From Nostoc punctiforme PCC 73102 (GTDB lineage Bacteria; Cyanobacteriota; Cyanobacteriia; Cyanobacteriales; Nostocaceae), in NCBI RefSeq assembly GCF_000020025.1, contig NC_010628.1, positions 6,240,001 through 6,272,000 on the forward strand: DNA of 32,000 nucleotides. Reading direction: 5' to 3'. Within the stretch, counting starts at the first letter, position 1. Each line of letters starts with the position of its first letter. Positions 3,001-29,373 of the stretch are shown in pieces. Position numbers and translations under genes: made by a program. Under the pieces are notes generated by a model. That model was not told where the DNA came from, did not search any database, and saw nothing but the letters and a program-made list of their open reading frames with translations.

Positions 3001-3297
3001 GAATATTTGCAGGTGCGCTATATATGTACAGAAGAAAGCAGTGAAGATGCAACAGACAACAATCTAAAGAATATTCAATTTTCCATTTTGGATCTTCGCT
3101 CTGCAATTACCATTATGCCTGCCCAATGGGTAACAGAACTTAATCAGGCAGCCGTTGAAGTCGATGCCGAAAGGATTTTTCAACTAATTGAGCAAATTCC
3201 ACCAACACATTCTCCTTTGGCAGAAAAATTGACAAATTTAGTCCGAAGTTTCTGCTTCGATGAAATTATTGATGTAACGGAAGAAAATTGTAACTGA
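1..3297 (+). CDS. Hybrid sensor histidine kinase (multiple PAS/GAF, HisKA, HATPase, receiver, C-terminal helical tail); 5' end lies upstream of the window
   Basis: The frame of ORF 16..3297 stays open back to base 1 ([10 protein letters not shown] precedes the first Met). H-box [15 protein letters not shown]-box [13 protein letters not shown]1 EDTGRGI, G2 GTGLGLTIS. Receiver [13 protein letters not shown]...[11 protein letters not shown]. Recurrent DISDRKQ(A/Q)E PAS-linker motifs. Confidence 0.9.
2223..2341. repeat. Composite G-rich (GGGGAGCAGGGGA-type) plus C-rich heptamer (CCCAATG/CCCCAAT) repeat, in frame inside the kinase ATPase domain
   Basis: ggggagtgaacagggagcaggggagacaggggagg ... (gcccaat)x3 gccccatgccccattcccaat(ccccaat)x3, translated as [35 protein letters not shown] between the N-box and G1-box. 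The same two-part element is intergenic at 25293-25540. Confidence 0.8.
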
Positions 3298-4675: not shown

Positions 4676-4677
4676 TG

Positions 4678-5834: not shown

Positions 5835-6317
5835 TCAAGTTGTTGCTAAAGCTGGTTCTGCCACAAAATATTTTAGATTTTCTTGCTGAGTGGCGAATTT
5901 CAAATATTGAGATGCCATTTCTGGTGTTAGCAATTCAATCATTAATCTGTTTTCTACCCAAAACTCAATCACATCAAAGAAAGAATCGCGGTTACAGCGC
6001 ACTACACGCCAATCTTCACGGACACCGATTTGTTCAATTTCTTTTTGGCTGATGGGTACAGAAATAGCTGCATGAATATCTGTATACATAGAGGTAATTG
6101 CAGTACGGACAAATACGCATTCTTCATCATTTTCACCAGGTTCAATTTGAGAGCCTAAAGGATAGAGTTCAATGGCTGTACCGTATTCATCAAAAGGTAT
6201 AACCATATAGCTTCCTGGGTTAGGAGGAAATGGAACAGCTTGTGCTTTTAAAATTTCTGCCAGAACTTGAGCAACGTGGCTGGGGTTTCTAACAGCAATT
6301 GAAATATGGTGAATCAT
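5835..6317 (-). CDS. VOC / glyoxalase-fold family protein
   Basis: The MIHHISIAVRNPSHVAQVLAEIL start is typical of the VOC beta-alpha-beta-beta-beta module. ATG is preceded by a GAGG Shine-Dalgarno. Promoter box A lies upstream. Confidence 0.6.
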   Translation of the reverse strand: MIHHISIAVRNPSHVAQVLAEILKAQAVPFPPNPGSYMVIPFDEYGTAIELYPLGSQIEPGENDEECVFVRTAITSMYTDIHAAISVPISQKEIEQIGVREDWRVVRCNRDSFFDVIEFWVENRLMIELLTPEMASQYLKFATQQENLKYFVAEPALATT

Positions 6318-6343: not shown

Positions 6344-6377
6344 AGATTAGAAAACAATCGGGGAGAACTAGGGGAGA
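6344..6377 (-). promoter_or_regulatory. C-rich box A plus -10: TCTCCCCTAGTTCTCCCCGATT-GTTTTC-TAATCT (gene sense)
   Basis: Reverse complement of 6344-6377. 22/22 match to the five-copy consensus. The -10-like TAATCT ends 27 nt before the VOC ATG. Confidence 0.55.
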
Positions 6378-6499
6378 GAAAAAATGGATAATCCAAGATG
6401 TATTGCAATAGGGTTCGGTTAAGGCAAGAGACGCGAAATTAGACTGGGCTGGGCTTCGCTACTCGCTTTCGCGTCTCTACATTCTTTTTAAACAAATAT

Positions 6500-7042
6500 C
6501 TATTGAGGTCGCCCATAGTGAGCTAGACCCTTGCCATCGGGGGTTGCAAGCAGTAGAACTTGCTGCCCGGATTCATTCGTCTCAATCGACCACTCGTAAG
6601 TCTCAGCCTTTGCCGAATTGCGGCTGGAGTAGGTACGCCCGCTATTGCAGATTTGCCCTTTGGATGTGCTGTCGCTAGGTTGGAAAGTCAGACGTTGACC
6701 TTCAATCTTAACTTTGCCTTTTTCCTGTATGAAGAGATTAGATTCACAGTTATAAGTGGTGATTTGAAGCAGCCGATTTCGCTGGTAGTTTCCGTTAGAT
6801 GCGAGTTGAAATTGATCGCTTGAACCATTTGGGGCTGCTGGCCGACCTGTGTAGCTGTCTTGGTATTGGATAGACGAGATTCGACCATACCGCCACTCGC
6901 CCTGAAGTTCGGCAGGTACTCCAGCATCGTTTTTACCTGCTTGACTTGCGCTTGGGTAAAAAACAAGGCTAGCGATGAGTCCCAAACTAAACGCGCTAGT
7001 AGTTAAAAGTTGAGCAGCTTTTGGTTTTGTTATTGAGTACAT
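6500..7042 (-). CDS. Hypothetical secreted protein
   Basis: N-terminal hydrophobic signal-like segment LLTTSAFSLGLIASLVFYPSASQA. No family recognised. Confidence 0.55.
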   Translation of the reverse strand: MYSITKPKAAQLLTTSAFSLGLIASLVFYPSASQAGKNDAGVPAELQGEWRYGRISSIQYQDSYTGRPAAPNGSSDQFQLASNGNYQRNRLLQITTYNCESNLFIQEKGKVKIEGQRLTFQPSDSTSKGQICNSGRTYSSRNSAKAETYEWSIETNESGQQVLLLATPDGKGLAHYGRPQ

Positions 7043-7167
7043 ATTGCTTTCTAGAAATAGATTTATTTATCAACAAAATTAACAAATGCAAATTCTGCGT
7101 GTTTATGTATAGCTTTTCTCCGTAAGGGTGTACAGTTAGCTGTACCCCTTACATCCAAACGCAAGAT

Positions 7168-7620
7168 TCACGCCAGAAATTGCAATCCATATTTGTTCAA
7201 AAGAGGCTGTATTTTTTCCATGTTTGGCGATGGACTATCTGCTATTTGACCCATTTCTTCATAAAAGTTTTTTGCATTTTGAGGTGCAATTAAAACCAGA
7301 AATTTAGCAGTAGCAGAACGAATCTTGAAGGCGTGTGGTGCATTGTGAGGAATATTAACAAAAGAGCCGGTTGATGCCAAAATTGTTTCTGTACCAACTT
7401 GGATATCTAGTTCTCCTTCGAGAATATAAAATGCCTCTTCCCAAGGGTGAGTATGCAGTGGTGGACCATTTTCTTGTGTATCTGTAATTTCATAAATTTT
7501 CCAAGCTTGATTTGTCTCTTCACCAGTTGCTTTGGTTGTAAATTGTCCACCCATAATTGAGAATTGATTACCTTCTCCTGATCCAAGAATAATTGGTTTA
7601 CGCATGGTTGAAGTTTGCAT
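7168..7620 (-). CDS. Cupin domain protein
   Basis: Cupin motifs [18 protein letters not shown] and [14 protein letters not shown] lies 8 nt upstream of the ATG. Promoter box B lies upstream. Confidence 0.75.
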
Positions 7621-7683
7621 ACAAGTTACTCCGTATTGTGTAATTTGGTAGGTGTTATCTACAAATTTGATTTGATGTTTTTA

Positions 7684-7717
7684 AGATTAGAAATTAATCG
7701 GGGAGAACTAGGGTAGA
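7684..7717 (-). promoter_or_regulatory. C-rich box B plus -10: TCTACCCTAGTTCTCCCCGATT-AATTTC-TAATCT (gene sense)
   Basis: Reverse complement of 7684-7717. 21/22 match to consensus. About 50 nt of extended similarity to box A, including an upstream CCATTT. Confidence 0.55.
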
Positions 7718-7824
7718 TAAATGGGTAATTGGAATTTTTTTGTAAACGATTATTAAGACCTAGGACTAAGGTTACAATTTCTAGAAATCATTAGTAGCCT
7801 ATTCTGGCTAAAGTCGATCTTGCC

Positions 7825-9360
7825 ATGCCTAAAGAGCCGCTCAACTTTCCCAAAGCAGACATACTGGTGATTGATGACACGCCAGAAAACCTGAACCTCT
7901 TATCTGCCATGTTGACAGAACAGGGATATAAAGTTCGGAGTGTAACTAAGGGTTCTACGGGGTTACGAGGGGCAAATGCAGTTCCCCCCGACCTGATTTT
8001 GCTGGATGTGAATATGCCGGAGATGAATGGGTATGAAGTCTGCGAACATTTGAAGGCAAGCGATCGCACTCGCAAAATCCCGGTAATTTTTATCAGCGCT
8101 TTAGGTGATGTGCTAGATAAGGTGAAAGCCTTTGCAGTTGGGGGAGTGGACTATATCACTAAGCCTTTTCAACTAGAAGAGGTTTTAGCACGAATTGAAA
8201 ATCACTTAACGATTTGGAAACTGCAACAACAACTCCAAGCCCAAAATGAGCGGTTGCAGCAGGAAATTCACGATCGCGCCAAAGCAGAAGAGAAGTTTGC
8301 TAAAGTTTTTCGCTCTAGTCCCAATCCGATCGCGATCGCTACAGTCTCGAATGCTCGTTTCATTGATGTCAATCCCAGTTTCTTGAAGATGAGCGGCTAC
8401 TCTCTAGACGAAGTGATTGGAAATACTGCTACTGAACTTAATTTGGGTAAAAACACAGTCGCGATCGCTCAAACAATTCAACTTCTGCCAGAAACTGGTT
8501 CACTGTACAATCTAGAATTTGAATTTTCGACTAAGTGTGCAGAACTAAAAACTGTACTGATATCTCTCGAATTGATTGACTTAGCTGGAGTACCGTGTGC
8601 TTTATTAATTGCCAATGATATCACCGAACGCAAACGCCTAGAAAACGAATTTATCTCTTTAGTCAGTCATGAATTGCGTACACCTTTAACTTCCACAATG
8701 GGAGCATTAGATTTATTGGGTTCAGAACAACTGGGAACTCTGAATGAACAAGGCCAAAAAGTTCTGAGCATTGCCACCACTAATACTGAACGCCTAATTC
8801 GTTTAGTGAACGATATTCTCGATTTAGAGCGGATGAAATCGGGCAAAATCTTCACGCGGAAGATGAAGTACAACGCCGCAGACTTACTAACTACCGCCAC
8901 AGAAGCAATGCAAGCAATGGCAGATCAATTACAAGTCAAATTGATTATAAATCCTGTAGAAGTTGAACTTTGGGCTGATCCCGATCGCCTGCTGCAAACC
9001 CTGACTAATTTACTGAGCAACGCTATTAAGTTTTCTGAACCAGGAGACACGGTGTATATAAGTGCCACTCTCTCAGAATCTCAAGGCGTTGAGCCTAAAG
9101 AAAATGAGCCTTTATTACCCAAATACCTTTTGATTACTATCAAAGATCAAGGGCGAGGAATTCCTGAAGATAAACTACAAATAATTTTCGAGCGCTTTCA
9201 GCAGGTGGATGCATCCGACTCCCGCAACAAAGGAGGAACAGGTTTAGGACTAGCTATTTGCCGAGATATCATCCAGCAACATGATGGCAAAATCTGGGTT
9301 CAAAGCACTTTAGGTGAAGGTAGCACTTTTTATGTATTGCTACCTTTACCAGTGCAATAA
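7825..9360 (+). CDS. Receiver-PAS-histidine kinase (N-terminal REC, PAS, HisKA, HATPase)
   Basis: ILVIDDTPENLNLL...LLDVNMPEMNG...K receiver, a coiled coil, a PAS-like segment, H-box [11 protein letters not shown]-box LLSNAIKFS, G1 KDQGRGI, G2 GTGLGLAI. Confidence 0.9.
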   Translation: MPKEPLNFPKADILVIDDTPENLNLLSAMLTEQGYKVRSVTKGSTGLRGANAVPPDLILLDVNMPEMNGYEVCEHLKASDRTRKIPVIFISALGDVLDKVKAFAVGGVDYITKPFQLEEVLARIENHLTIWKLQQQLQAQNERLQQEIHDRAKAEEKFAKVFRSSPNPIAIATVSNARFIDVNPSFLKMSGYSLDEVIGNTATELNLGKNTVAIAQTIQLLPETGSLYNLEFEFSTKCAELKTVLISLELIDLAGVPCALLIANDITERKRLENEFISLVSHELRTPLTSTMGALDLLGSEQLGTLNEQGQKVLSIATTNTERLIRLVNDILDLERMKSGKIFTRKMKYNAADLLTTATEAMQAMADQLQVKLIINPVEVELWADPDRLLQTLTNLLSNAIKFSEPGDTVYISATLSESQGVEPKENEPLLPKYLLITIKDQGRGIPEDKLQIIFERFQQVDASDSRNKGGTGLGLAICRDIIQQHDGKIWVQSTLGEGSTFYVLLPLPVQ

Positions 9361-9380
9361 ACTGCTTCTAACAGCTTAAT

Positions 9381-9414
9381 TCTTCCCTACTTTTCCCCGA
9401 TCTGGCTTTAGAAT
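9381..9414 (+). promoter_or_regulatory. C-rich box D plus -10: TCTTCCCTACTTTTCCCCGATC-TGGCTT-TAGAAT
   Basis: 18/22 match to consensus with the same 6-nt spacing to TAnnnT. Lies 53 nt upstream of the receiver gene ATG. Confidence 0.45.
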
Positions 9415-9466
9415 AGCTCAAGAGCGATCAAGCAAATCAGCACATATATTTTGCAAGAGTGCCATT

Positions 9467-9841
9467 ATGAACAGAAAGATCTTGATTGTTGATGATGAAG
9501 AAGATGTGCGGGCGATCGCCAAGTTGGGATTAGAAATGGCTGCTGGCTGGAATGTATTGACAGCAAGTTCTGGTCAGGAAGCTTTGAAGGTAGCTGCTAC
9601 CCATAAACCAGATGTCATTCTACTAGATATGATGATGCCTGATATGGATGGGCGTGCAACTCTGCAACAACTGAAAGCTAACCCCGCCACTAAGAAAATT
9701 CCAGTAATTTTATTAACAGCTAAACTCCAGCAATCAGATCGAGAGAGTTTTACTGATATGGATGTCGCTGCTATTTTTGCCAAGCCTTTCCGTCCATTGA
9801 AACTAGCAGAGCAAATCAATGAAGTGCTGGTTGCCCTTTAG
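9467..9841 (+). CDS. Single-domain (CheY-like) response regulator, no output domain
   Basis: ILIVDDEEDVR...ILLDMMMPDMDG...LTAK...KPF over 124 aa. Confidence 0.9.
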   Translation: MNRKILIVDDEEDVRAIAKLGLEMAAGWNVLTASSGQEALKVAATHKPDVILLDMMMPDMDGRATLQQLKANPATKKIPVILLTAKLQQSDRESFTDMDVAAIFAKPFRPLKLAEQINEVLVAL

Positions 9842-9849
9842 TTTTAGAT

Positions 9850-10077
9850 AGGACTGACGCAAAAACCCTCTCAAACACTCATTCCTCAGTGTCGCGCCAG
9901 TTGCTACAAGTCGGGGAACCCGACGACAGTCGCCTCAAGTCGGGAAACCCGCCCACGGCGCTGTCTCCCCAACGCACTGGCTTCTCTGCGTCCTCCGTGG
10001 TAGCCTGCGGCAAGCCACTTCTCTACGAGACGCTACGCGAACGTGTCTACGTTTTCCGTTACTTGTACGTAAGTCCT
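9850..10077. repeat. MITE-like element (termini AGGACTgACGCAAAA ... ACGTAAGTCCT) carrying nested insertions
   Basis: Same family as the 91-bp copy at 22734-22824. Shared termini and internal blocks (cctctcaaac, ttctctg.g.cctc.gtgg, ttttccgttac). The extra roughly 137 bp appears as two internal insertions of other dispersed repeats. Confidence 0.7.
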
Positions 10078-10195
10078 ATTAGATTCAGAATCCTGTTTCA
10101 ACTCGTCATTATAGAGGCTCTAGCTCTGGTTACACAGTTAGGGCTTTAGGGCTAAGATCCAGTGCCCATGTCGTCAATTATTTTCCACCCAAAAA

Positions 10196-10311
10196 TTGGC
10201 GTTGCTGAATTCAGGTATGAAAATGATTTTGCGTGATTTCAAAAACCTTGTAGAGACGTTGCAATGCAACGTCTCTACACCAAGATCCATATATCTAATC
10301 AGCAACGCCAA
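10196..10311. repeat. Nested palindromic element: 13-bp inverted repeats TTGGCGTTGCTGA / TCAGCAACGCCAA around the perfect palindrome GTAGAGACGTTGCAaTGCAACGTCTCTAC
   Basis: Inverted repeats at 10196-10208 and 10299-10311. Central 29-nt palindrome at 10250-10278. Related GTAGAGACG...CGTCTCTAC hairpins at 3430-3459, 6427-6480 and 27038-27057. Confidence 0.75.
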
Positions 10312-10335
10312 AAAATTTTTCTGCTATTGCAACTA

Positions 10336-10369
10336 TCTCCCCTACTTCTCCCCGATTCTTCTCTACATT
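10336..10369 (+). promoter_or_regulatory. C-rich box C plus -10: TCTCCCCTACTTCTCCCCGATT-CTTCTC-TACATT, putative lanA promoter
   Basis: 21/22 match to consensus. The predicted transcription start near 10376 leaves an ~80-nt leader that contains the conserved hairpin. Confidence 0.55.
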
Positions 10370-10381
10370 CAAATCAGAAGA

Positions 10382-10419
10382 GCAGAGAACACCGCACAAA
10401 ACAAGTGTAGAATCTCTGC
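10382..10419 (+). promoter_or_regulatory. Conserved 5'-leader hairpin of lanA1 (GCAGAGA ... TCTCTGC)
   Basis: A 7-bp stem is conserved in front of both precursor genes (second copy 10846-10871) while the loops differ. It is followed by the conserved GGTTTA..GTCAA.AAACGGAGGATA ribosome-binding region. Confidence 0.35.
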
Positions 10420-10455
10420 GGTTTAGATAAGTCAACAAAAACGGAGGATAGACGG

Positions 10456-10731
10456 ATGTTACACCAAATCAAAGAATTACTGCAAAACGCCCAATTACAA
10501 CAGCAAGTAAAAGCAGCAGCTAACCAAGCAGAAGCTATTAAAGTGTTAGCGATCGCTAGTGCAGAGAAAGGTTATAACTTCACAGTCGAAGCGATCTCTC
10601 AAATGCTGGCAGAATTGACCTCTGTGGCATCTGATGAACTGAGTGAAGAAGAATTACTCAGCGTTAGTGGAGGAGCCGTCTCTGAATCACACGTACACAT
10701 GTCATGTTGTAACGACTGTCCAACGAGATAA
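10456..10731 (+). CDS. lanA: Nif11-like-leader class II lanthipeptide precursor 1 (core AVSESHVHMSCCNDCPTR)
   Basis: 73-aa leader with Nif11-type features (helical N-terminus, acidic LSEEELLSVSGG double-glycine end). The 18-aa core has 4 Ser/Thr and 3 Cys. Strong GGAGGA ribosome-binding site. LanM lies immediately downstream. Confidence 0.9.
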   Translation: MLHQIKELLQNAQLQQQVKAAANQAEAIKVLAIASAEKGYNFTVEAISQMLAELTSVASDELSEEELLSVSGGAVSESHVHMSCCNDCPTR

Positions 10732-10906
10732 GCCAATTAGAGAAGCACGAGCCAGGGATTAACCAGAGTGGGGACTAGAGGAGTAAAAGATTACTCTGCT
10801 TGATTTTGCCATTCAGCAATCCCTTACTAAATTTAAAACAAAAAAGCAGAGAATATGCATAAAATCTCTGCGGTTTAATGAGTCAAACAAACGGAGGATA
10901 TAGCTT

Positions 10907-11182
10907 ATGTTACACCAAATCAAAGAACTACTTCAAAACGCACAACTACAACAGCAAGTAAAAACAGCAGCTAATCAAGCAGAAGCTATTAAAGTGTTAG
11001 CGATCGCTAGTGCAGACAAAGGTTATAACTTTACAGTCGAAGCTATCTCTCAAATGCTAGCAGAATTGACCTCTGTGGCATCTGATGAACTGAGTGAAGA
11101 AGAATTACTCAGTGTTAGTGGAGGAGCCGTCTCTGAATCACACGTACACATGTCATGTTGTAACGACTGTCCAACCAAATAA
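10907..11182 (+). CDS. lanA: Nif11-like-leader class II lanthipeptide precursor 2 (core AVSESHVHMSCCNDCPTK)
   Basis: Differs from copy 1 at 13 of 276 nt: 10 synonymous and 3 conservative changes (A20T, E37D, R91K). Confidence 0.9.
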   Translation: MLHQIKELLQNAQLQQQVKTAANQAEAIKVLAIASADKGYNFTVEAISQMLAELTSVASDELSEEELLSVSGGAVSESHVHMSCCNDCPTK

Positions 11183-11291
11183 ACCAAATTGAGTAGCACG
11201 AGCAAGGGATCGTGAGGAGTGAGGACTGGAGGAGTAAAAGATTACTCTGCTTGATTTTACTATTCAGTCATCCCTTACTAAATTTAAATCA

Positions 11292-11309
11292 GGCGCAAGG
11301 CTTTGCGCC
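11292..11309 (+). terminator. Hairpin GGCGCAA-ggct-TTGCGCC after lanA2 (possible partial terminator/attenuator)
   Basis: Perfect 7-bp GC-rich stem followed by cctatattt. A second perfect 11-bp hairpin AGGCTATATTC-atc-GAATATAGCCT lies at 11343-11367. Both precede lanM. Confidence 0.4.
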
Positions 11310-11418
11310 CCTATATTTAACATTTAACAGACACAAGTGAGAAGGCTATATTCATCGAATATAGCCTACACGAGTATTTTTCTACTTTTGTCTAACCACC
11401 ACCTTAAAAAGTTCAGCC

Positions 11419-14400
11419 ATGTCTCAACTATTTGTTCAATCTTCCCAGCAGATTCCTCTATCCGACTTAGCAACCATAGTCACTAAAGCCAGTTTTCTGT
11501 GGGAACGCCTCAATACAAAACAATTTGCGATCGCTGCTGGTTTGCTTAATGAACAAAAGATTGACCATCGCCTGGAACGCTGGTGTCAAGTCGTAGCACA
11601 AGGAAATTGGAATACTCTACAAAAACGTTTAGAGTGGGAAGGCTTAGACTTCGATACAATTCGCCCTCAATTGGGAACAGTAGAGTTTAATGCTGGTCAG
11701 CCGTTGCCAAAATGGGCAGAAACATTACAAAAAATTATTCAAACAGCAACAGAATTTCAGCCTGAATTAGAAACATTTCTCCCGACCGACTCAGAAAATC
11801 CTATTCCCTTTGAAGACATTTTTTTGCCTATTATTAAAGTCGCCAGGCTAGAACTTAGAACTCGACTTGAAGAACACCTTCCCCAATTACTTTTAACAGA
11901 AACCGCTTACCGCAATTTGGAACGGAGTTTGCTGCAACGGCTGGCGACATTTTGCACCAAAACACTACATTTTGAATTTTCTCAGGCTCGTCCATTTGGT
12001 CAAAACTTGCTCAACTTGTTGGGGCTAGAAACAGAAAGTGAAAAAACTAAGACTCACTACAATAAGTTTGTCAATCAACTTCTACAAGATGGATTGATGG
12101 CATTCTTTTGCAAATATCCAGTTCTCGGTCGATTAGTGGCAACCGTAGTCAACTTTTGGGTTGATTTCACTGCCGAGTTCTTGCAACGTCTGGCTGAAGA
12201 CAAAGCAGATATTCAACAAATTTTTGGAGAATTTGGGTCTGAGCAACCAGATTATTTAGGTAAAGTTGCTGAAATAAAAACTTCCTTATCTGATCCTCAT
12301 AAGCAAGGAAGAACCGTTATCTTGCTCACATTTGAGTCGGGACTAAAACTCGTTTATAAACCCAAAGATTTGGGTCTGGAAGTTAGTTTCAACCAATTTC
12401 TAGACTGGTGCAATCAACACAGCCATCTTTTAGATTTTAAAGTTATCCAAGTGCTTAACCGGAATAACTACGGTTGGGTAGAATATGTTGAACATCAAGC
12501 TTGTATTGATGAAGCTGCTGCGGAGCGCTTTTATCAACGAGCAGGGATGTTGTTATGTGTACTTTATACTTTACGGGGGACAGATTGTCACCACGAAAAT
12601 TTGATTGCTAGTGGTGAACATTTGGTGCTGATTGACACAGAAACTTTACTGCATCATGAAGCAAATCTGATTGAAAATTCACCAGATATGCAAGGATCTG
12701 AGGCCAACGCTGAACAGCAACTTGGAAACTCTGTACTCCGTAGTGGGCTTTTACCCCGTTGGGATTTTAGCAGCGATCGCCGCGTTGCGTATGATGTTAG
12801 TGGTTTGGGCAGTACTGACCCTCAGCAAGCTCCTCAGAAAGTACCGCGCTGGGGACTAGTTAATACCGACGAAATGCACTTGGGCTATGAGTTTATCACG
12901 TTACCTATTCAGAAAAATGTGCCGTACATAGGTGAAATTGGCCTTTCTCCCAATGATTATCAAGCACAAATTGCTGCGGGGTTTGAGCAGATGTATCGTT
13001 TTCTGATGGACAACAAGGATATGTTGTTTCAACCAAAGAGTCCGTTAACTGTGATGGGGAAGCAACAGGTGCGTTTTGTTTTTCGCCCCACTCGCGTTTA
13101 CAGCGTCATCCTACAAAAAATTTGGGCATCCGATTACCTCAAAGACGGGATAGACTACAGCATCGAACTTGAACGCCTCAGTTGTGCTTTTCTGGTCGCT
13201 CAGGAAAAACCTAATGCTTGGCATATTTTGAGTGCGGAATTACGGGCGATGGAACAATTAGACATTCCTTTCTTCACAGCTAACGCTGCTAGTGATGAAT
13301 TGAGTGTGAGCGATGATTTATCTATTCCGCACTATTTTAAACAACCCAGTTATCACCATGTCTTGAGGCAGTTACAGGCAATGAGTAAAACTGACCTTGC
13401 CAGACAAATAGCAATTATTCAAGGCTCGTTCCATGCCAAGTTAGCACAAACCTCCAGTGAAGAAAGTGAGCAATGGGACGTTGAATCTGCACCGTTGCTA
13501 AGTTCAGCACAATTGATAGAAGAGGCTGGAGCGATCGCTAATGCACTCGAAAAGACAGCGATTCTCGATCCTGATGGTAGTATCAACTGGATTGGCTTAA
13601 ATTATGTACCCGAAGCAGAGCGATTCCGACTGCAAGTATTAGGCTCTGGTCTTTATGATGGACGTTCTGGGGTTGCCTTATTTCTTGCTGCACTCAATAA
13701 AGTAGCCGGGGAGCCACGCTTGCGCGATTTAGCATTGAGGACATTACAACCCTTGCGTCGGCAAATCCAGACTTTTGACTTAGAATCTCAGCAACGTATG
13801 AGTCGCTTGATGGGAATCGGTGGGGGAGCGGGTTTGGGTTCTCTAATCTATGCTTTTGTGAAAGTAAGGCAATTCCTAAATGATGAAACGCTATTGGCAG
13901 ATGCTCAAGCATTAGCAGAGTGGATGACACCTGAATTGATTGCTGCCGATAAAAAATTGGATATCATGAGCGGAGCGGCTGGAGCTATTTTAGGGCTGTT
14001 ATCTTTGTATGAAGTCACAAAAGATGCAACCGTTTTAGAAAAGGCGATCGCCTGTGGGCAACATTTACTTTCTCGCCAGGTCAGCTATAAAGGCGCTCCC
14101 AAAGCTTGGCAGACTCTTGGCGAACAACCTTTAACTGGTTTCTCTCACGGAACAGCAGGAATTTCTTATGCTTTGCTGCGACTTTACACAGTTACTCAAA
14201 ATCAAGATTATTACGAAGCTGCACTGGCAGGCATTGAGTATGAACGCAGTGTCTTTTGTGAATCCCAAGGTAACTGGCCTGATTTTCGCAGTGCAGAGAT
14301 GAATCAACCACCGGGCTTTCCAGTGAGATGGTGTCACGGTGCAACTGGCATTGGTTTAGGACGTTTGGGTAGCTTGGGAGTTATCGATTCTCCTGAAATT

Positions 14401-14724
14401 GAACAGGAGATTGAAATTGCTTTGCAAACCACCCAAAATTACAGCTTACAAGACAGCGACCACTTATGTTGTGGCAACTTAGGTCGGATTGAGGTGTTGT
14501 TAGTCGGCGCTCAACGTTGCTCCCGCTCTGATTGGCATCAAATAGCCCTCCAGAATGCTGCAAATGTCGTAGCTAAAGCCAAGCAAACTGGAGCATACCA
14601 AATGTTTACTAATTTACCTAGTTCGGTATTTCATCCGAGTTTATTCCGGGGTACGGCGGGAATTGGTTATGAGTTGCTACGGCTAGCCACGGATGATCTG
14701 CCTTCGGTGCTGTTATGGGAATGA
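11419..14724 (+). CDS. lanM: Class II lanthipeptide synthetase LanM (N-terminal dehydratase, C-terminal LanC-like cyclase, CCG type)
   Basis: 1101 aa. Cyclase motifs SHGTAGI, WCHGATGIG and HLCCGNLG (Cys-Cys-Gly in place of Cys-His-Gly, as in ProcM-like enzymes). Adjacent to GG-leader precursors. Confidence 0.93.
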   Translation: MSQLFVQSSQQIPLSDLATIVTKASFLWERLNTKQFAIAAGLLNEQKIDHRLERWCQVVAQGNWNTLQKRLEWEGLDFDTIRPQLGTVEFNAGQPLPKWAETLQKIIQTATEFQPELETFLPTDSENPIPFEDIFLPIIKVARLELRTRLEEHLPQLLLTETAYRNLERSLLQRLATFCTKTLHFEFSQARPFGQNLLNLLGLETESEKTKTHYNKFVNQLLQDGLMAFFCKYPVLGRLVATVVNFWVDFTAEFLQRLAEDKADIQQIFGEFGSEQPDYLGKVAEIKTSLSDPHKQGRTVILLTFESGLKLVYKPKDLGLEVSFNQFLDWCNQHSHLLDFKVIQVLNRNNYGWVEYVEHQACIDEAAAERFYQRAGMLLCVLYTLRGTDCHHENLIASGEHLVLIDTETLLHHEANLIENSPDMQGSEANAEQQLGNSVLRSGLLPRWDFSSDRRVAYDVSGLGSTDPQQAPQKVPRWGLVNTDEMHLGYEFITLPIQKNVPYIGEIGLSPNDYQAQIAAGFEQMYRFLMDNKDMLFQPKSPLTVMGKQQVRFVFRPTRVYSVILQKIWASDYLKDGIDYSIELERLSCAFLVAQEKPNAWHILSAELRAMEQLDIPFFTANAASDELSVSDDLSIPHYFKQPSYHHVLRQLQAMSKTDLARQIAIIQGSFHAKLAQTSSEESEQWDVESAPLLSSAQLIEEAGAIANALEKTAILDPDGSINWIGLNYVPEAERFRLQVLGSGLYDGRSGVALFLAALNKVAGEPRLRDLALRTLQPLRRQIQTFDLESQQRMSRLMGIGGGAGLGSLIYAFVKVRQFLNDETLLADAQALAEWMTPELIAADKKLDIMSGAAGAILGLLSLYEVTKDATVLEKAIACGQHLLSRQVSYKGAPKAWQTLGEQPLTGFSHGTAGISYALLRLYTVTQNQDYYEAALAGIEYERSVFCESQGNWPDFRSAEMNQPPGFPVRWCHGATGIGLGRLGSLGVIDSPEIEQEIEIALQTTQNYSLQDSDHLCCGNLGRIEVLLVGAQRCSRSDWHQIALQNAANVVAKAKQTGAYQMFTNLPSSVFHPSLFRGTAGIGYELLRLATDDLPSVLLWE

Positions 14725-14783
14725 GGGCAAGTTGGGGACTTCATATTGGAGATTATTTTTCCCCAGTCCTCAACACCTCCCCC

Positions 14784-14906
14784 AATACGGTTCGGTTAAA
14801 GGGGAAAGGGAAAAGGGAAAAGGTTTTAAATACATCCTTTACCCCTTGCCCCAAAACCTTTTCCCAGACCACAAGGAAAGTTCATAGTGCTTATCCGAAC
14901 CGTATT
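14784..14906. repeat. MITE-like element with 12-bp terminal inverted repeats AATACGGTTCGG / CCGAACCGTATT and an internal hairpin
   Basis: Termini at 14784-14795 and 14895-14906. Internal GGGAAAAGGTTTT / AAAACCTTTTCCC. ACCTCCCCC lies on both sides (14775-14783 and 14910-14918). Confidence 0.65.
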
Positions 14907-14910
14907 GATA

Positions 14911-14944
14911 CCTCCCCCAGTTCTACCCGATTTCCCCTTAATCT
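14911..14944 (+). promoter_or_regulatory. C-rich box E plus -10: CCTCCCCCAGTTCTACCCGATT-TCCCCT-TAATCT, putative export-operon promoter
   Basis: 19/22 match to consensus with identical 6-nt spacing. Lies about 90 nt upstream of the HlyD-family gene ATG. Confidence 0.5.
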
Positions 14945-15035: not shown

Positions 15036-16475
15036 ATGCAACTCAAACACAGCCATATCTTTCGCCAAGAAGCTCTGGAACGCTTATCTTCACCAGAACA
15101 ACTGGATCAAGCGATAAATGTAGTCAAGCCTCAAGCTTGGTTGACTTTATCTACCATGAGTTTTGTAGTTGCTGTAGCTGGGCTTTGGAGTGTGTTCGGC
15201 AGAATTCCCCTGACTGTCACAGGTCAAGGTATCTTGATTAAACCGCACCATGTTGTAGAATTTCAAGCGCCCAGTTCTGGCCCGTTACTAACTTTGAAGG
15301 TAAAGGCGGGAGATATTATTAAGCAAGGTGATGTGCTGGGTATTATCGACCAATCAGCGCTAAAACAGCAACTACAGCAAGAGCAAGTAAAGTTGCAACA
15401 ATTGCAAACCCAAAATCAAGAGACTGACAGGTTACAAAAGCTGCTAATTGACCAACAAATCATTACTCTTGGGCAGCAGAGAATGGATTTGGAAAATAAT
15501 TTGCGTCGAGAGCAAGGTGCGCCAAAGTTACGCGATCAAACACAAAGAGCGATCGCTCAAAAACGTCAAAGCATTAATTCTCGCAAACAACAAATTAATT
15601 ATTTACTCAAAACTCTTAAAGGACGAGTTGATAATCGTCGTCACCTTTTTGAGCAGCATGTAATCAGCCAAGATATGTTGGTGCAAGCTGAACAGGAATA
15701 TTTTAACACTCAAAGCGAACTCTCAGATATTGACGTACAACTAAAGGATCTCGAAATCCAAGAAACCACCACACAACGAGAATATCTGGAAAATCTTAAT
15801 AGAATTGACGAAATTAAAACAAAAATTAAAGACCTGAATACTCAAAATACTAAATTACACGAGCAAGACCTGAAGCAATCAATTGACAAAACAAATAAAA
15901 TTCGGGAAGTAAAGCGCCGTATAGCCCAATTGGAACTCCAACTATCTCAAGAAAGTAGAATCATTAGCAAATACAATGGTCATATTCTGGAAGTGAGTGT
16001 TGTTCCTGGTCAAATGATGAATCCGGGTACTCGCCTAGGGTCAATCGAAGCTGAAGAAGCAAATTCAAAACTTATGAGCCTTGTTTACTTTGCTAATAAA
16101 GATGGTAAGCAAATCAAGCCAGGAATGGCTGTACAGGTGACTCCCAGTTTTGCCAAGCGTGAACGCGAAGGTGGTATTGTCGGAACGATCGCAGATATTT
16201 CTTCATTTCCGGTAACTACACAAGATATTACAGCGATCGTTGGTAACAAAGAAATGGCTGCCAGTCTTGCAGGTAAAGGCGAAGGTCAAGTGCAAGCTTT
16301 TGTCCAACTCCAAGAAAATCCAACATCAGTCAGTGGCTACAAATGGTCATCTTCTGACGGCCCTGCTTTAAAAATATCCTCCGGCACAACTACCTCTGTT
16401 CAAGTAAAAGTTGGAGAAAAAGCACCGATTTCTTATATTATTCCTATGCTGCGATCTTGGACGGGGATTTATTAA
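15036..16475 (+). CDS. HlyD-family membrane-fusion/secretion protein of the NHLP/Nif11-type bacteriocin export system
   Basis: N-terminal [16 protein letters not shown] motif, one TM segment, a biotinyl-lipoyl-like hairpin, a long Q/E/K-rich coiled coil, and a C-terminal beta-barrel. GAGGGG ribosome-binding site. Followed by a C39-ABC transporter. Confidence 0.88.
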
Positions 16476-16478
16476 TTT

Positions 16479-16834
16479 GGGAATGGGGAATGGGGAATAG
16501 GGCATTGGGGTTAAAACTTGAATGTTCACCCTCAGAAGCTCAACGTCCGCCCTCAGAAGCTCAACGTCCACCCTCGGAAGCTCAACGTTCACCCTCAGAA
16601 GCTCAACGTCCACCCTCAGAAGCTCAACGTCCACCCTCAGAAGCTCAACGTCCACCCTCAGAAGCTCAACATTCACCCTCAGAAGCTCAACATTCACCCT
16701 CAGAAGCTCAACGTCCACCCTCAGAAGCTCAACGTTCACCCTCAGAAGCTCAACGTTCAAGTTTTAACTCCCAAATGCCCCATGCCCAATACTTCGGCTC
16801 CGCTCAGTACAAGTGCCCCATTCCCAATCCCAAA
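16479..16834. repeat. Inverted-repeat-bounded repeat element between hlyD and the ABC exporter
   Basis: Left arm gggaatggggaatggggaatagggcattggggttaaaacttgaa. Right arm ttcaagttttaactcccaaatgccccatgcccaat...gccccattcccaatccc, with complementary inner arms. Encloses the 21-bp array. Confidence 0.8.
16524..16754. repeat. Tandem array, 11 units of 21 bp (consensus GTCCACCCTCAGAAGCTCAAC)
   Basis: Counted unit by unit. The only variants are at unit positions 1, 3, 5 and 11. All three plus-strand frames and one minus-strand frame are open across it. Confidence 0.95.
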
Positions 16835-19046: not shown

Positions 19047-19165
19047 TATTTGTAAAAAATTTAGACGAGAATGTAAAAATACCCACCCAGACAATTTTGT
19101 GGGAATTATAAAAATTTATTAGGTTTAAATGTGAGTAAAATTGATTTTGAAAATCTGAGGAAAAA

Positions 19166-19690
19166 GTGATTAATAACCAATTAATATCCATTGCTCTGTT
19201 TGCAGGAGCTTTCGGTCTTGATTTGGGTATAGAAGAAGCAGGTTTTTATACTGTCAGCGTAGTTGAAATAGATGCTGATGCAACAAAAACTATTATTCTG
19301 AACCGCCCCCACAATATGGATAAAGACCAAGTAGTTTACTGGGCTGAAAAAATTCAAGAAAAGGTTAAAGAAGGAGATCAAGCGTATATAGGATTTACTT
19401 ATGGTAAAAGAACAAGCAAAACAGTAACAATTGGTCTATTAAAACAAATACTGCCTGATTGGGAAATGCAAACTTTGATTGGTAAAGAACTGTGGAATTT
19501 CTTGAGCGAAGACTCTGATTACAGTTCTAAATTATTTGAGGTTTTGCGTAAATCAGCACATCAGATACTGCATCAAAATTCACTTTCCGAAGAGATAGAT
19601 AGTTGTGCAAATAGAGTAAATTATGAATTTATACAAGACTTTGGAGATGGTCATCAGGGAGTATCGAATTACATTAATAGCATTTTTTAA
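19166..19690 (+). CDS. Hypothetical chimeric ORF: N-terminal ~48 aa resemble motifs I-II of a C5 cytosine DNA methyltransferase, the rest is unrelated
   Basis: ISIALFAGAFGLDLGIEEAGFYTVSVVEIDADATKTIILNRP resembles FxGxGG...AGF...vEid...NxP, but with AGAFG instead of AGAGG. No PC catalytic motif follows. GTG start with GAGGA 5 nt upstream. The surrounding 19047-19830 is visibly AT-richer than its neighbours. Confidence 0.4.
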   Translation: MINNQLISIALFAGAFGLDLGIEEAGFYTVSVVEIDADATKTIILNRPHNMDKDQVVYWAEKIQEKVKEGDQAYIGFTYGKRTSKTVTIGLLKQILPDWEMQTLIGKELWNFLSEDSDYSSKLFEVLRKSAHQILHQNSLSEEIDSCANRVNYEFIQDFGDGHQGVSNYINSIF

Positions 19691-19830
19691 TGCTAAATTT
19701 TATATGGCAACGTGCAATACTTTTGTCTAAAATTATACATACAAAGCTAATTATTAATTATAGAACGCTATGTACTAGATATGATATAGCAAAAGACTTC
19801 TAGCCCATCAAATATTCCATTAATTGAGCA

Positions 19831-29349: not shown

Positions 29350-29373
29350 GTTTGGATGATTTCAGAAATGAGA

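What the first reader, a model, noticed from the sequence alone, without database searches (positions are those of the whole stretch)
6344..14944. Five copies of a 22-bp C-rich box at fixed spacing from a -10 hexamer link the lanthipeptide genes to a VOC protein, a cupin and an orphan receiver
Each intergenic region was read in the sense of its downstream gene. A (rc 6344-6377, VOC): TCTCCCCTAGTTCTCCCCGATT-GTTTTC-TAATCT. B (rc 7684-7717, cupin): TCTACCCTAGTTCTCCCCGATT-AATTTC-TAATCT. D (9381-9414, stand-alone receiver): TCTTCCCTACTTTTCCCCGATC-TGGCTT-TAGAAT. C (10336-10369, lanA1): TCTCCCCTACTTCTCCCCGATT-CTTCTC-TACATT. E (14911-14944, hlyD/ABC): CCTCCCCCAGTTCTACCCGATT-TCCCCT-TAATCT. Between 18 and 22 of 22 positions match the consensus. 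The box always lies exactly 6 nt before a TAnnnT hexamer, always points at the gene, and sits 25-120 nt from the start codon. It is a direct repeat TCTCCCC-N4-TCTCCCC with an 11-bp period (one helical turn). It occupies about -40 to -19, where a -35 element would sit, and no TTGACA-like hexamer is present. This fits a promoter dependent on an activator (for example a winged-helix/OmpR-class protein) or an alternative sigma factor. I do not recognise it as NtcA, HetR, LexA, Fur, HLR1 or Pho-box. No DNA-binding protein is encoded in the window, so the cognate factor is unknown.
Basis: seen in the sequence. Interest (0 to 1): 0.8.

Follow-up and report, generated by a model that had tools for sequence, protein, structure and literature searches.

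The report
Activator box of the nostolanthin regulon
A conserved 22-bp tandem-repeat box replaces the -35 element at five promoters around the symbiosis-induced nostolanthin (lanthipeptide) gene cluster of Nostoc punctiforme and at over 100 promoters in related cyanobacteria; it is most likely the docking site of an OmpR/PhoB-type response regulator encoded 2.5 kb outside the window.

Summary
Five boxes lie at the stated coordinates, 18-22 of 22 positions match, each is followed by 6 nt and TAnnnT, and none is expected by chance. The flanks do not align, so this is not a mobile repeat.

A scan of 185,579 species genomes with the box alone returned 143 cyanobacterial matches, mostly from Nostocales. 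In 140 of them TAnnnT sits exactly 6 nt downstream, although the hexamer was not part of the search pattern. Nearly all are intergenic and point at a gene. The recurrent targets are HlyD/ABC exporters, a VOC-fold protein, a cupin, a receiver-only protein, Nif11 LanA precursors and other small peptides.

The geometry is that of a PHO box: two 11-bp direct repeats, a heptamer core ending 10 bp before the -10, and no -35.

The window is the nlt (ripp4) cluster of N. punctiforme PCC 73102, which is induced by host contact. It encodes no DNA-binding protein. The truncated kinase at its left edge is preceded by a 787-aa REC-wHTH-HPt-REC-GGDEF regulator (ACC83377). This regulator travels with the box across lineages, and I propose it as the cognate activator. 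That link is inferred, not shown.

I class the box as a new member of a known kind.

The parts
6356..6377 (-). Box A, TCTCCCCTAGTTCTCCCCGATT (0 mismatches), promoter of the VOC-fold gene
   Evidence: The orthologous box precedes VOC-fold genes in 24 instances.
6344..6349 (-). -10 hexamer TAATCT of promoter A, 6 nt after the box; predicted transcription start near 6337(-)
   Evidence: The spacing is conserved in 140 of 143 cyanobacterial matches.
7696..7717 (-). Box B, TCTACCCTAGTTCTCCCCGATT (1 mismatch), promoter of the cupin gene and probably of the 180-aa secreted-protein gene behind it
   Evidence: There are 20 orthologous cupin promoters and a perfect box before the cupin gene in the Aphanothece MAG L133.
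7684..7689 (-). -10 hexamer TAATCT of promoter B
9381..9402 (+). Box D, TCTTCCCTACTTTTCCCCGATC (4 mismatches), promoter of the receiver-only gene nltR2
   Evidence: It is conserved before orthologous receiver genes in 7 instances.
9409..9414 (+). -10 hexamer TAGAAT of promoter D
10336..10357 (+). Box C, TCTCCCCTACTTCTCCCCGATT (1 mismatch), promoter of nltA1-nltA2(-nltM)
   Evidence: Six Nif11-LanA promoters carry the box. It lies inside the 614-bp upstream fragment that drives an inducible CFP reporter (10.64898/2026.08.14.744816).
10364..10369 (+). -10 hexamer TACATT of promoter C
14911..14932 (+). Box E, CCTCCCCCAGTTCTACCCGATT (3 mismatches), promoter of the exporter genes nltT1 (HlyD) and nltT2
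   Evidence: HlyD genes are the commonest box target, with 26 instances.
14939..14944 (+). -10 hexamer TAATCT of promoter E
5835..6317 (-). Target gene: 160-aa VOC-fold protein
   Evidence: No profile hit. AF2 model pLDDT 85; the 50 Foldseek PDB hits listed (76 at E<=0.001) are all VOC superfamily. UniRef names homologues 'VOC domain-containing'.
6500..7042 (-). 180-aa protein with a signal-peptide-like N-terminus, between the cupin and VOC genes; it has its own box in some genomes
   Evidence: cluster 12; 26 loci
7168..7620 (-). Target gene: cupin (Cupin_2)
7825..9360 (+). NltR1: REC-PAS-HisKA-HATPase kinase; no box, no DNA-binding domain
   Evidence: named in 10.64898/2026.08.14.744816
9467..9841 (+). 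NltR2: 124-aa receiver-only protein (target gene); cannot bind DNA itself
10456..11182 (+). nltA1 (10456-10731) and nltA2 (10907-11182): Nif11-leader lanthipeptide precursors with the core ...SHVHMSCCNDCP...
   Evidence: The core matches the published (S/T)HxHxSCCxDCP motif.
11419..14724 (+). nltM, class II lanthipeptide synthetase (DUF4135 + LANC_like)
15036..22716 (+). Exporter genes nltT1 (HlyD, 15036-16475), nltT2 (C39-ABC, about 16518-19046) and nltT3 (cNMP-ABC, 19831-22716)
1..3297 (+). C-terminal 1,093 codons of a hybrid PAS/GAF histidine kinase (about 1,870 aa in the orthologue of Nostoc sp. ATCC 53789). The gene starts at about -2315 and is preceded at -4903..-2540 by the 787-aa REC-wHTH-HPt-REC-GGDEF regulator, the candidate box-binding protein, which lies outside the window.
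   Evidence: L137 positions 6686-8988 equal window 1-2303 at 100% identity.

Best explanation
The 22-bp box is the operator of a class II, OmpR/PhoB-type, activator-dependent promoter.

Proposed mechanism:
- Two winged-helix domains bind head-to-tail to the two 11-bp direct repeats TCTCCCCTAGT and TCTCCCCGATT.
- The repeats occupy the place of the missing -35 element, with the heptamer core ending 10 bp before a sigma-70-type TAnnnT.
- From there the bound dimer recruits the housekeeping RNA polymerase.

In this window the five boxes tie together one regulon of the Nostoc punctiforme nostolanthin (nlt/ripp4) locus:
- the precursor/synthetase operon;
- the HlyD-ABC exporter operon;
- the receiver-only gene nltR2, which would give a feedback loop;
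- a cupin(-180-aa) unit;
- a VOC-fold gene.

The most likely binding protein is the 787-aa regulator ACC83377/WP_012411331. Its architecture is REC, OmpR-type wHTH, HPt, REC and a degenerate GGDEF. It is encoded 2.5 kb left of the window, directly upstream of the large PAS-rich hybrid kinase that the window truncates.

NltR1 (REC-PAS-kinase) and NltR2 (receiver only) have no DNA-binding domain. They probably feed or drain a multistep phosphorelay that ends on this regulator through its HPt domain, as in RcaE-RcaF-RcaC.

Shown here: the sequence architecture, its conservation, the target genes and the genomic linkage. Inferred: binding, activation and the route of phosphotransfer.
For: 1. The five boxes are real and non-random. 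Similarity stops at the box and the hexamer.

2. A genome scan with the box alone hit its 120-block limit. It returned 107 cyanobacterial blocks and 13 non-cyanobacterial chance hits. TAnnnT lies exactly 6 nt downstream in 140 of 143 cyanobacterial matches and in 0 of 13 non-cyanobacterial matches, although it was not in the pattern.

3. Of 145 boxes, 141 lie outside ORFs of 150 aa or more, although such ORFs cover 75% of the DNA. For 134 of 145 an ORF starts within 450 nt downstream on the same strand.

4. Across 29 unrelated downstream gene families, conservation is limited to the box, the -10 and an A-rich start region.

5. The geometry equals the PHO box: two 11-nt direct repeat units, each with 7 conserved and 4 less conserved positions, bound head-to-tail by PhoB, which contacts sigma-70 (PMC4415409).

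6. No DNA-binding domain was found in any window ORF scanned, large or small.

7. Regulator linkage:
- The regulator-kinase pair adjoins the locus in Nostoc sp. ATCC 53789. In the source strain, L137 overlaps the window at 100% identity.
- Regulator residues 1-220 score as a complete OmpR/PhoB-type regulator (RppA model 292.8 bits, cut-off 250).
- The kinase orthologue lies inside 19 box-bearing 8-kb blocks and the regulator inside 3.
- The Aphanothece MAG L133 carries regulator, kinase, a box-driven cupin, a REC-PAS-kinase and a box-driven receiver, with no lanthipeptide genes.
- Seven distant loci were fetched through the regulator protein alone. Four of them contain box+TAnnnT sites at up to 7 mismatches (5 sites, about 0.02 expected per locus). 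Two of these lie immediately upstream of the regulator gene, divergently oriented.

8. Experimental context from the literature: a 614-bp fragment upstream of ripp4 drives a reporter induced by Blasia contact and by nostoclide/nostovalerolactone (10.64898/2026.08.14.744816; PMC9324945).
Against: - There is no binding, footprint, transcription-start or mutant evidence; the regulator-box link rests on genomic association only.
- N. punctiforme encodes many OmpR-type regulators, and any of them could be the binder.
- The regulator and kinase genes carry no box themselves in Nostoc.
- Two regulator-kinase loci, L130 and L135, have no box within 10 kb.
- Many boxes lie far from the regulator, though this is expected for a regulon.
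- A Ser/Ala difference in the recognition helix tracks box variants only loosely. Calothrix HK-06 has Ala (P0111) yet carries a box matching the search pattern at L016, TCTTCCC..TTCTACCC.
- Many cyanobacterial promoters lack a -35, so its absence alone does not prove activation.
Confidence: 0.62

Rival explanations
1. The box has the same function, as a tandem-repeat activator site that replaces the -35. It is bound, however, by a different regulator encoded elsewhere: another OmpR/PhoB-family response regulator, or another family that binds direct repeats. The neighbouring multidomain regulator would be only a bystander or an upstream relay component.
For: - The regulator is not next to most boxes.
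- It has no box of its own in Nostoc.
- L130 and L135 have the regulator and kinase but no box.
- ripp3 and ripp4 also respond to overexpression of an AraC-type regulator of the pks1 cluster (PMC9324945).
Against: - The AraC effect is reproduced by the purified diffusible pks1 products, so it is indirect.
- AraC-type proteins contact two unlike half-sites with two different HTH motifs, whereas these half-sites are near-identical.
- No other DNA-binding protein recurs near the boxes.
- The regulator-box association holds in at least nine separate lineages, including loci chosen through the regulator alone.
Confidence: 0.22
2. The box is a repressor operator. A protein bound from about -40 to -19 blocks RNA polymerase, and induction is de-repression.
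For: - The cluster is silent in standard culture and sharply induced.
- The box overlaps the polymerase footprint.
- RcaC-type regulators both activate and repress (PMC5737509).
Against: - No promoter carries a -35-like hexamer at 16-18 bp, so without a factor these would be weak promoters.
- The strict 6-nt phasing to the -10 at 140 of 143 sites is what activator-polymerase contact requires. Steric blocking would not demand it.
- The geometry is identical to activating PHO boxes.
Confidence: 0.09
3. The box plus the hexamer is the bipartite promoter of an alternative (group 3 or ECF) sigma factor.
For: - The block upstream of the transcription start is conserved.
- There is no canonical -35.
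- The targets form a coherent regulon.
Against: - The -10 is a housekeeping-type TAnnnT (TAATCT, TAGAAT, TACATT).
- The upstream element is a direct repeat, with both copies equally conserved.
- The heptamer copies lie 21 and 10 bp from the -10, not 16-18 bp.
- No sigma or anti-sigma gene is linked to the boxes.
Confidence: 0.05
4. The box is a dispersed or mobile short repeat with no regulatory role.
For: Cyanobacterial genomes are rich in short dispersed repeats, and other repeats (STRR-like, G-rich) lie in the same intergenic regions.
Against: - The flanks are unrelated.
- Only a few copies were returned per genome (up to about 6 in the truncated scan).
- 141 of 145 copies are intergenic.
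- The orientation towards genes is uniform.
- The phasing to the -10 is fixed.
- The boxes are conserved at orthologous promoters across genera.
Confidence: 0.01

Closest known systems
PHO box / PhoB-dependent promoters (E. coli and many bacteria)
   Same: - Two 11-bp direct repeat units, each with 7 well conserved and 4 less conserved positions, bound head-to-tail by an OmpR/PhoB winged helix that contacts sigma-70 (PMC4415409).
- The box replaces the -35.
- The heptamer core ends 10 bp before the -10. That this equals the E. coli spacing is from my own knowledge of the pho box.
   Different: - The repeat sequence is TCTCCCC, not CTGTCAT, nor the cyanobacterial PyTTAAPyPy(T/A) recalled from memory.
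- The regulon is peptide natural products and their export, not phosphate supply.
- The candidate regulator has three extra domains (HPt, REC, degenerate GGDEF).
NisRK / SpaRK autoinduction of lantibiotic operons (Lactococcus, Bacillus); from my own knowledge, not checked in a paper here
   Same: - An OmpR-family regulator activates the lanA promoter, the transporter or immunity promoter and a regulatory-gene promoter of a lanthipeptide cluster.
- It does so through short direct repeats with a period of about 11 bp at promoters that lack a good -35.
   Different: - Here the kinase and receiver inside the cluster (NltR1, NltR2) have no DNA-binding domain, and the candidate DNA binder sits outside the cluster.
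- The known inducers are host contact and nostoclide/nostovalerolactone. The peptide itself is not known to induce.
- The regulon extends to VOC and cupin genes, and to loci without any lanthipeptide genes (L133).
RcaE-RcaF-RcaC and RfpA-RfpC-RfpB phosphorelays of cyanobacteria
   Same: - A sensor kinase, a receiver-only shuttle protein and a large response regulator act in series (PMC5737509; PMC13492139).
- The regulator is of the OmpR class and carries an HPt domain; this part is from my own knowledge.
- The window locus has the same cast: kinases, the receiver-only NltR2 and a REC-wHTH-HPt-REC regulator.
   Different: - RcaC's L-box is a different sequence. It is called an inverted motif in PMC5737509.
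- RcaC has no GGDEF domain (my own knowledge).
- Those signals are light colours.
- Orthology with RcaC was not tested.
CcaR G-box promoters (chromatic acclimation type 2)
   Same: A cyanobacterial OmpR-class regulator binds a direct repeat in the promoter and activates it (PMC5737509).
   Different: - The G-box consensus I recall, CTTTNCNATTT, only loosely resembles the half-site CTCCCCGATT.
- CcaR is a simple two-domain regulator with different targets.
- Not tested here.
SARP (Streptomyces antibiotic regulatory protein) boxes
   Same: Heptameric direct repeats with an 11-bp period overlap the -35 of biosynthetic-cluster promoters and are read by an OmpR-type winged helix (my own knowledge; AfsR binding at a -35 region is mentioned in PMC4415409).
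   Different: - SARPs have no receiver domain and carry a BTAD domain.
- No BTAD or SARP protein is linked to the boxes.
- The candidate here is a phosphorylatable response regulator.

Membership tests
OmpR/PhoB-type class II activator-dependent promoter (PHO-box-like) | Tandem direct repeats with a period of about 11 bp (one helical turn) | tested here: met
   The box is TCTCCCCTAGT|TCTCCCCGATT. Both halves are conserved across 29 gene families.
OmpR/PhoB-type class II activator-dependent promoter (PHO-box-like) | The box occupies or replaces the -35 at a fixed distance from a sigma-70-type -10 | tested here: met
   TAnnnT lies exactly 6 nt after the 22-mer, so the heptamer core ends 10 bp before it. 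This holds in 5 of 5 window sites and in 140 of 143 cyanobacterial matches.
OmpR/PhoB-type class II activator-dependent promoter (PHO-box-like) | No functional -35 hexamer | tested here: met
   The sigma-70 scan finds no -35/-10 pair at the five sites. The position 17 bp upstream reads CCTAGT.
OmpR/PhoB-type class II activator-dependent promoter (PHO-box-like) | The box is bound by a winged-helix response regulator dimer | not testable with these tools
   There is only a candidate: ACC83377, whose residues 1-220 form a complete OmpR/PhoB-type module. It is linked to the boxes by synteny and co-occurrence.
OmpR/PhoB-type class II activator-dependent promoter (PHO-box-like) | Transcription depends on the activator and starts about 7 nt after the -10 | not testable with these tools
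   Published reporter data show only that the 614-bp region upstream of ripp4 is inducible. No transcription-start data were available.
Cyanobacterial Pho box / HLR1 / NtcA / known Rfam elements | Match to the known consensus or model | tested here: not met
   The repeat TCTCCCC differs from the consensus sequences I recall for these sites. Rfam gives no match in the window. A full-text search for the box strings found no paper that uses them in this context.
Dispersed or mobile short repeat (MITE/STRR-like) | Similarity extends into the flanks, copy number is high, and there is no bias in position or orientation | tested here: not met
   The flanks are unrelated. 141 of 145 copies are intergenic. 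134 of 145 have a gene start within 450 nt downstream.
Alternative (ECF or group 3) sigma promoter | A single -35 element 16-18 bp from a non-housekeeping -10, with a linked sigma or anti-sigma gene | tested here: not met
   The -10 is TAnnnT. The heptamer copies lie 21 and 10 bp from it. No sigma gene occurs in the window or in related loci.
LytTR (AgrA/ComE/PlnC-type) bacteriocin promoters | 9-bp direct repeats with a period of about 21 bp upstream of a -35, with a LytTR regulator in the cluster | tested here: not met
   The period is 11 bp and the box replaces the -35. No LytTR domain was found in the window ORFs scanned. The LytTR site geometry is from my own knowledge.
Nostolanthin (nlt/ripp4) biosynthetic gene cluster | Two Nif11-leader precursors with the core (S/T)HxHxSCCxDCP, a LanM, three transporters including a C39-ABC, and NltR1/NltR2 | tested here: met
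   The window carries ...SHVHMSCCNDCP... twice and has the expected Pfam architecture. The published description is in 10.64898/2026.08.14.744816. The window joins at 100% identity to a contig that encodes the N. punctiforme PCC 73102 protein ACC83377.

The most novel reading that the evidence does not exclude
The box and the REC-wHTH-HPt-REC-GGDEF regulator form a previously unrecognised signalling regulon, widespread in Nostocales with outposts in Coleofasciculaceae, Aphanothece and Chroococcales MAGs. A multistep phosphorelay would convert host contact or cell-density cues into co-ordinated transcription. The relay would comprise the large PAS kinase, NltR1 and the receiver-only NltR2 feeding the regulator's HPt domain. 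The targets would be secreted RiPPs (nostolanthin and its sister clusters, and the 40-aa Cys-rich peptides), their exporters, and a conserved VOC/cupin pair. In that case the published assignment of NltR1/NltR2 as the cluster's two-component regulator is incomplete. The co-induction of ripp3 and ripp4 would also have a single cis-acting explanation.
Probability: 0.35. Interest if true: 0.78.

Novelty: new member of a known kind. Interest (0 to 1): 0.64.

Why it matters
The window is the nostolanthin (nlt/ripp4) cluster. A 2026 preprint shows that its product promotes early Nostoc-Blasia symbiosis. Its transcription is switched on by host contact and by the mediators nostoclide and nostovalerolactone. 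How that switch works is unknown.

The preprint names NltR1/NltR2 as the regulatory pair, but NltR2 is a bare receiver that cannot bind DNA.

The box supplies three things:
- a concrete cis-element, 22 bp in five copies, that can be mutated in the existing 614-bp reporter;
- a defined regulon that reaches beyond the biosynthetic genes (VOC-fold protein, cupin, receiver, exporters) and recurs across Nostocales;
- a specific candidate transcription factor, ACC83377, to delete, purify or use for ChIP.

It could also serve as a search key for silent RiPP clusters and as an inducible promoter part for Nostoc engineering.

Tried and rejected
- Larger repeat or mobile element: rejected, because the flanks of the five sites do not align.
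- Known RNA element: no Rfam match in the window.
- A regulator hidden in small ORFs of the window: ten ORFs of 59-90 aa gave no DNA-binding family, and the larger ORFs gave none either.
- Search of the box-bearing 8-kb blocks with OmpR, PhoB and NarL DNA-binding domains: only L008 and L024 (the multidomain regulator) and one NarL-type protein in L055 were found. The blocks are too short to reach the regulator in most genomes.
- Literature search for the box strings, for the regulator's accessions and for NPUN_RS locus tags: nothing relevant. Supplementary RNA-seq tables of the two Nostoc papers are not held, so co-induction of the VOC, cupin and nltR2 genes could not be checked.
- Plasmid collection: it holds only paralogues of the regulator at about 40% identity and one weak box-like hit. 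This was uninformative.
- Attempt to extend the window leftwards with window proteins: only short contigs were returned. The link was made instead through the regulator protein.
- ripp3 of PCC 73102 could not be fetched. The HlyD search lumped the paralogues into one 90% cluster. A second box-driven HlyD operon, next to an LRR protein gene, in the close relative UCD121 (L095) is only suggestive.
- Ser/Ala at the recognition helix as a specificity marker: the trend is only loose. Calothrix HK-06 has Ala (P0111) yet carries a box matching the search pattern at L016, TCTTCCC..TTCTACCC (alignment).

Full report
**Observation**

- A: 6356-6377(-), 0 mismatches.
- B: 7696-7717(-), 1 mismatch.
- C: 10336-10357(+), 1 mismatch.
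- E: 14911-14932(+), 3 mismatches.
- D: 9381-9402(+), 4 mismatches.

Each is followed by 6 nt and a TAnnnT hexamer. At up to 3 mismatches there are four matches, against 0.00 expected in shuffles. The next best site in the window has 7 mismatches and no hexamer.

An alignment of the five regions with 60-nt flanks shows identity only in the box and the hexamer, so they are not copies of a longer repeat. The consensus promoter scan reports no -35/-10 pair at any of the five sites. The hexamer that would sit 17 bp upstream of the -10 is CCTAGT.

The distance from the hexamer to the start codon is 26-91 nt.

**What surrounds the boxes**

Pfam annotation gives this gene order:
- the C-terminal 1,093 codons of a PAS/GAF hybrid kinase (1-3297, +);
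- insertion-sequence debris;
- a 160-aa protein without a profile hit (5835-6317, -);
- a 180-aa protein (6500-7042, -);
- a cupin (7168-7620, -);
- a REC-PAS-kinase (7825-9360, +);
- a 124-aa receiver-only protein (9467-9841, +);
- two Nif11-leader precursors, a LanM, HlyD, a C39-ABC transporter and a cNMP-ABC transporter;
- then unrelated housekeeping genes.

The precursor core ...SHVHMSCCNDCP... and the gene order identify the nostolanthin (nlt, formerly ripp4) cluster of Nostoc punctiforme PCC 73102 (10.64898/2026.08.14.744816). In that paper the REC-PAS-kinase is NltR1 and the receiver is NltR2, so the receiver is not an orphan.

The '160-aa VOC protein' has no sequence-profile match. A confident AlphaFold model (pLDDT 85, pTM 0.80) matches only VOC-superfamily structures, namely FosX/FosB/FosA, glyoxalases and bleomycin-resistance proteins. 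UniRef labels several homologues as VOC domain proteins.

**Conservation**

- 107 blocks are cyanobacterial. Nearly all are Nostocales: Nostoc, Calothrix, Tolypothrix, Aulosira, Fischerella, Chlorogloeopsis, Anabaena catenula, Amazonocrinis and Desmonostoc. The rest are Coleofasciculaceae, Chroococcales and Aphanothece MAGs.
- 13 blocks are chance or coding hits in other phyla.

Of 143 cyanobacterial matches, 140 have TAnnnT exactly 6 nt downstream. None of the 13 others does. Because the hexamer was not searched for, this is an independent confirmation of the box/-10 unit.

141 of 145 boxes (including the window's five) lie outside ORFs of 150 aa or more, although such ORFs cover 75% of the sequence. 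134 of 145 have an ORF starting within 450 nt downstream on the same strand.

The downstream genes fall into recurrent families:

| Family | Instances |
|---|---|
| HlyD exporters | 26 |
| VOC-fold protein | 24 |
| Cupin | 20 |
| 165-192-aa membrane protein | 8 |
| Receiver-only protein | 7 |
| Nif11 LanA | 6 |
| Acyl carrier protein | 3 |
| C39-ABC transporter | 2 |

Tandem 40-aa Cys-rich peptide genes also occur, each with its own box.

Across 29 families, conservation is restricted to the box, the -10 and an A-rich start region. The truncated scan returned only a few boxes per genome. This is a regulon, not a dispersed repeat.

**Mechanism**

The box is two 11-bp direct repeats, TCTCCCCTAGT and TCTCCCCGATT. 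The 18-bp core TCTCCCC-N4-TCTCCCC ends 10 bp before a housekeeping-type -10, and there is no -35.

This is the definition of a PHO box: two 11-nt direct repeat units, each with 7 conserved and 4 less conserved positions. PhoB effector domains bind them head-to-tail and contact sigma-70 (PMC4415409). Near-identical half-sites argue for two copies of one DNA-binding domain, which fits the OmpR/PhoB family.

An alternative sigma factor is unlikely, because the -10 is TAnnnT and the heptamer copies lie 21 and 10 bp from it. LytTR sites have a period of about 21 bp, which does not fit either. A repressor reading is possible, but it does not explain the strict phasing or the missing -35.

**The likely regulator**

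Contexts of the VOC-fold protein in complete genomes were fetched. They show that the kinase truncated by the window is about 1,870 aa long. It is preceded by a 786-787-aa protein with the architecture REC, Trans_reg_C (OmpR wHTH), HPt, REC and GGDEF.

The N. punctiforme copy is ACC83377/WP_012411331. It lies on contig L137, whose last 2,303 bp are 100% identical to window 1-2303. In window coordinates the regulator gene therefore occupies -4903 to -2540 on the + strand, and the kinase starts at -2315.

Residues 1-220 score as a complete OmpR/PhoB-type regulator (RppA model 292.8 bits, cut-off 250). They carry the phospho-acceptor Asp and, further on, an HPt-like HKLAG motif. The GGDEF motif is degenerate (GNGEF).

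Evidence that this protein belongs with the box:
- Proteins of the same architecture lie beside box-driven genes in Calothrix L008 and L024 and in Tolypothrix L086.
- The kinase orthologue lies inside 19 box-bearing blocks, from Nostoc to Chlorogloeopsis, Anabaena catenula and Coleofasciculaceae.
The unusual non-Nostocales taxa in the box list (the Aphanothece MAG, the Coleofasciculaceae MAG and Anabaena catenula) reappear in the regulator list.
- In the Aphanothece MAG the order is regulator, kinase, box-driven cupin, REC-PAS-kinase and box-driven receiver, with no lanthipeptide genes. The regulatory module and the box therefore travel together independently of the biosynthetic genes.
- Seven distant loci were fetched through the regulator protein alone. 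Four contain box+TAnnnT sites at up to 7 mismatches: five sites, where shuffles give about 0.02 per locus. In Leptothermofonsia and Kovacikia the diverged box lies directly upstream of the regulator gene, divergently oriented. In both it drives an FHA-domain gene, as the variant box does in a Pleurocapsales genome.

Evidence against:
- There is no box upstream of the regulator or the kinase in Nostoc.
- Two regulator-kinase loci have no box within 10 kb (L130, L135).
- The recognition helix differs by Ser/Ala between most canonical-box and variant-box genomes, but the correlation is not strict.

**Proposed circuit (inferred)**

The cast is a large PAS-rich hybrid kinase, a second REC-PAS-kinase (NltR1), a receiver-only protein (NltR2) and a large OmpR-class regulator with an internal HPt domain. 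This matches the multistep cyanobacterial relays RcaE-RcaF-RcaC and RfpA-RfpC-RfpB (PMC5737509; PMC13492139).

I propose that phosphate reaches the N-terminal receiver of the regulator. The regulator then dimerises on the boxes and recruits RNA polymerase. NltR2, whose own gene carries box D, would act as a shuttle or a sink and so provide feedback.

The published inducers are contact with Blasia and the mediators nostoclide and nostovalerolactone. ripp3 and ripp4 are always the most strongly co-induced clusters. A shared box would explain this, but I could not fetch ripp3 of PCC 73102. A close relative, UCD121, has a second box-driven HlyD operon next to an LRR protein gene (L095); the preprint reports internalin (LRR) genes in some sister clusters.

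**Novelty**

Neither Nostoc paper mentions a promoter motif, or that NltR2 lacks an output domain. Full-text searches for the box strings or for the regulator's accessions found nothing relevant. Rfam has no match.

The kind of element, an OmpR/PhoB-class direct-repeat box that replaces the -35, is well known. The sequence, its regulon and the candidate regulator appear to be undescribed. I therefore rate it a new member of a known kind. Its above-average interest comes from turning an open question into direct experiments: how a symbiosis-relevant silent cluster is switched on.

**Limits**

- All evidence is computational.
- The genome scan was truncated, so per-genome counts are lower bounds and co-absence of regulator and box was not tested.
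- The PCC 73102 chromosome itself was not readable with these tools.
- Transcription starts, binding and activation are untested.

Noticed in passing
L069 2298-3100; L097 3408-3900; L051 1691-2100; L063 7666-7800: Tandem genes encode a 40-aa Cys-rich peptide (MKTVEAIQPKTMKKFVIREVETLRTTRAAAYVCWICSSCW). They repeat every ~233-236 bp, each with its own box+TATATT promoter, in Nostoc linckia, Nostoc sp. C117 and N. punctiforme NIES-2108. They look like precursors of a non-Nif11 RiPP that belongs to the same regulon.
   Followed up: partly
L128 9705-9726(-); L129 9964-9985(-); L134 18316-18337(-): In Leptothermofonsia, Kovacikia and a Pleurocapsales genome a diverged box (TTCT[TC][CT]C half-sites) with the same 6-nt spacing to TAnnnT precedes an FHA-domain gene. 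In the first two it lies back-to-back with the regulator gene.
   Followed up: partly
window 10382-10419 and 10846-10871: The same hairpin (GCAGAGA...TCTCTGC) lies in the leader of both nltA1 and nltA2, just before the ribosome-binding site. Folding z-scores are only -2.2 and -1.7.
   Followed up: partly
window 11292-11352: A terminator-like GC hairpin (11292-11309) lies after nltA2. It is followed by the best sigma-70-like promoter match in the scanned region (TTAACA-17-TATATT, 11324-11352) ahead of nltM. This suggests attenuation between the precursors and the synthetase, and a separate basal promoter for nltM.
   Followed up: no
window 3300-5600: Insertion-sequence debris lies between the kinase and the VOC-fold gene: a DDE transposase fragment at 4147-4599 and a DUF4351 ORF at 4678-5367. 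Nostoc sp. ATCC 53789 has a shorter version of this stretch, and Nostoc sp. C110 has other genes there.
   Followed up: no
window 19166-19690: A 174-aa ORF with only the N-terminal part of a C-5 cytosine DNA methylase sits between nltT2 and nltT3.
   Followed up: no
window 9880-10030 and 10249-10279: The 495-bp gap between nltR2 and box C holds STRR-like GC-rich repeats and a palindrome with a perfect 14-bp stem and a 3-nt loop (TGTAGAGACGTTGCATTGCAACGTCTCTACA), which the scan scores as terminator-like on the - strand.
   Followed up: no
outside the window, L121 17174-19534(-) / L137 1782-4145: The GGDEF domain of the candidate regulator carries GNGEF instead of GG[DE]EF, in Nostoc and in Calothrix. 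It is probably not an active diguanylate cyclase.
   Followed up: no
L007, L015, L021, L028, L042, L076, L102, L112 (box family '...GATT gttatt TAATCT aaaaatataaac'): One well conserved box family has no intact ORF downstream in several genomes. Short remnants resemble the N-terminus of the 165-192-aa membrane protein that other members drive. This may be a decaying target gene or a non-coding transcript.
   Followed up: partly
window 14780-14830 and L137 4146-4369: G-rich/C-rich short repeats (GGGGAAAGGGAAAAGGGAAAAGG and its complement-like CCTTTCCCCTTTCCCC) occur upstream of box E and in the regulator-kinase gap.
   Followed up: no
window 28510-29827: The sugar-non-specific nuclease NucA (Endonuclease_NS) and its inhibitor NuiA are encoded convergently. 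This pair is typical of Nostoc/Anabaena and is unrelated to the finding.
   Followed up: no
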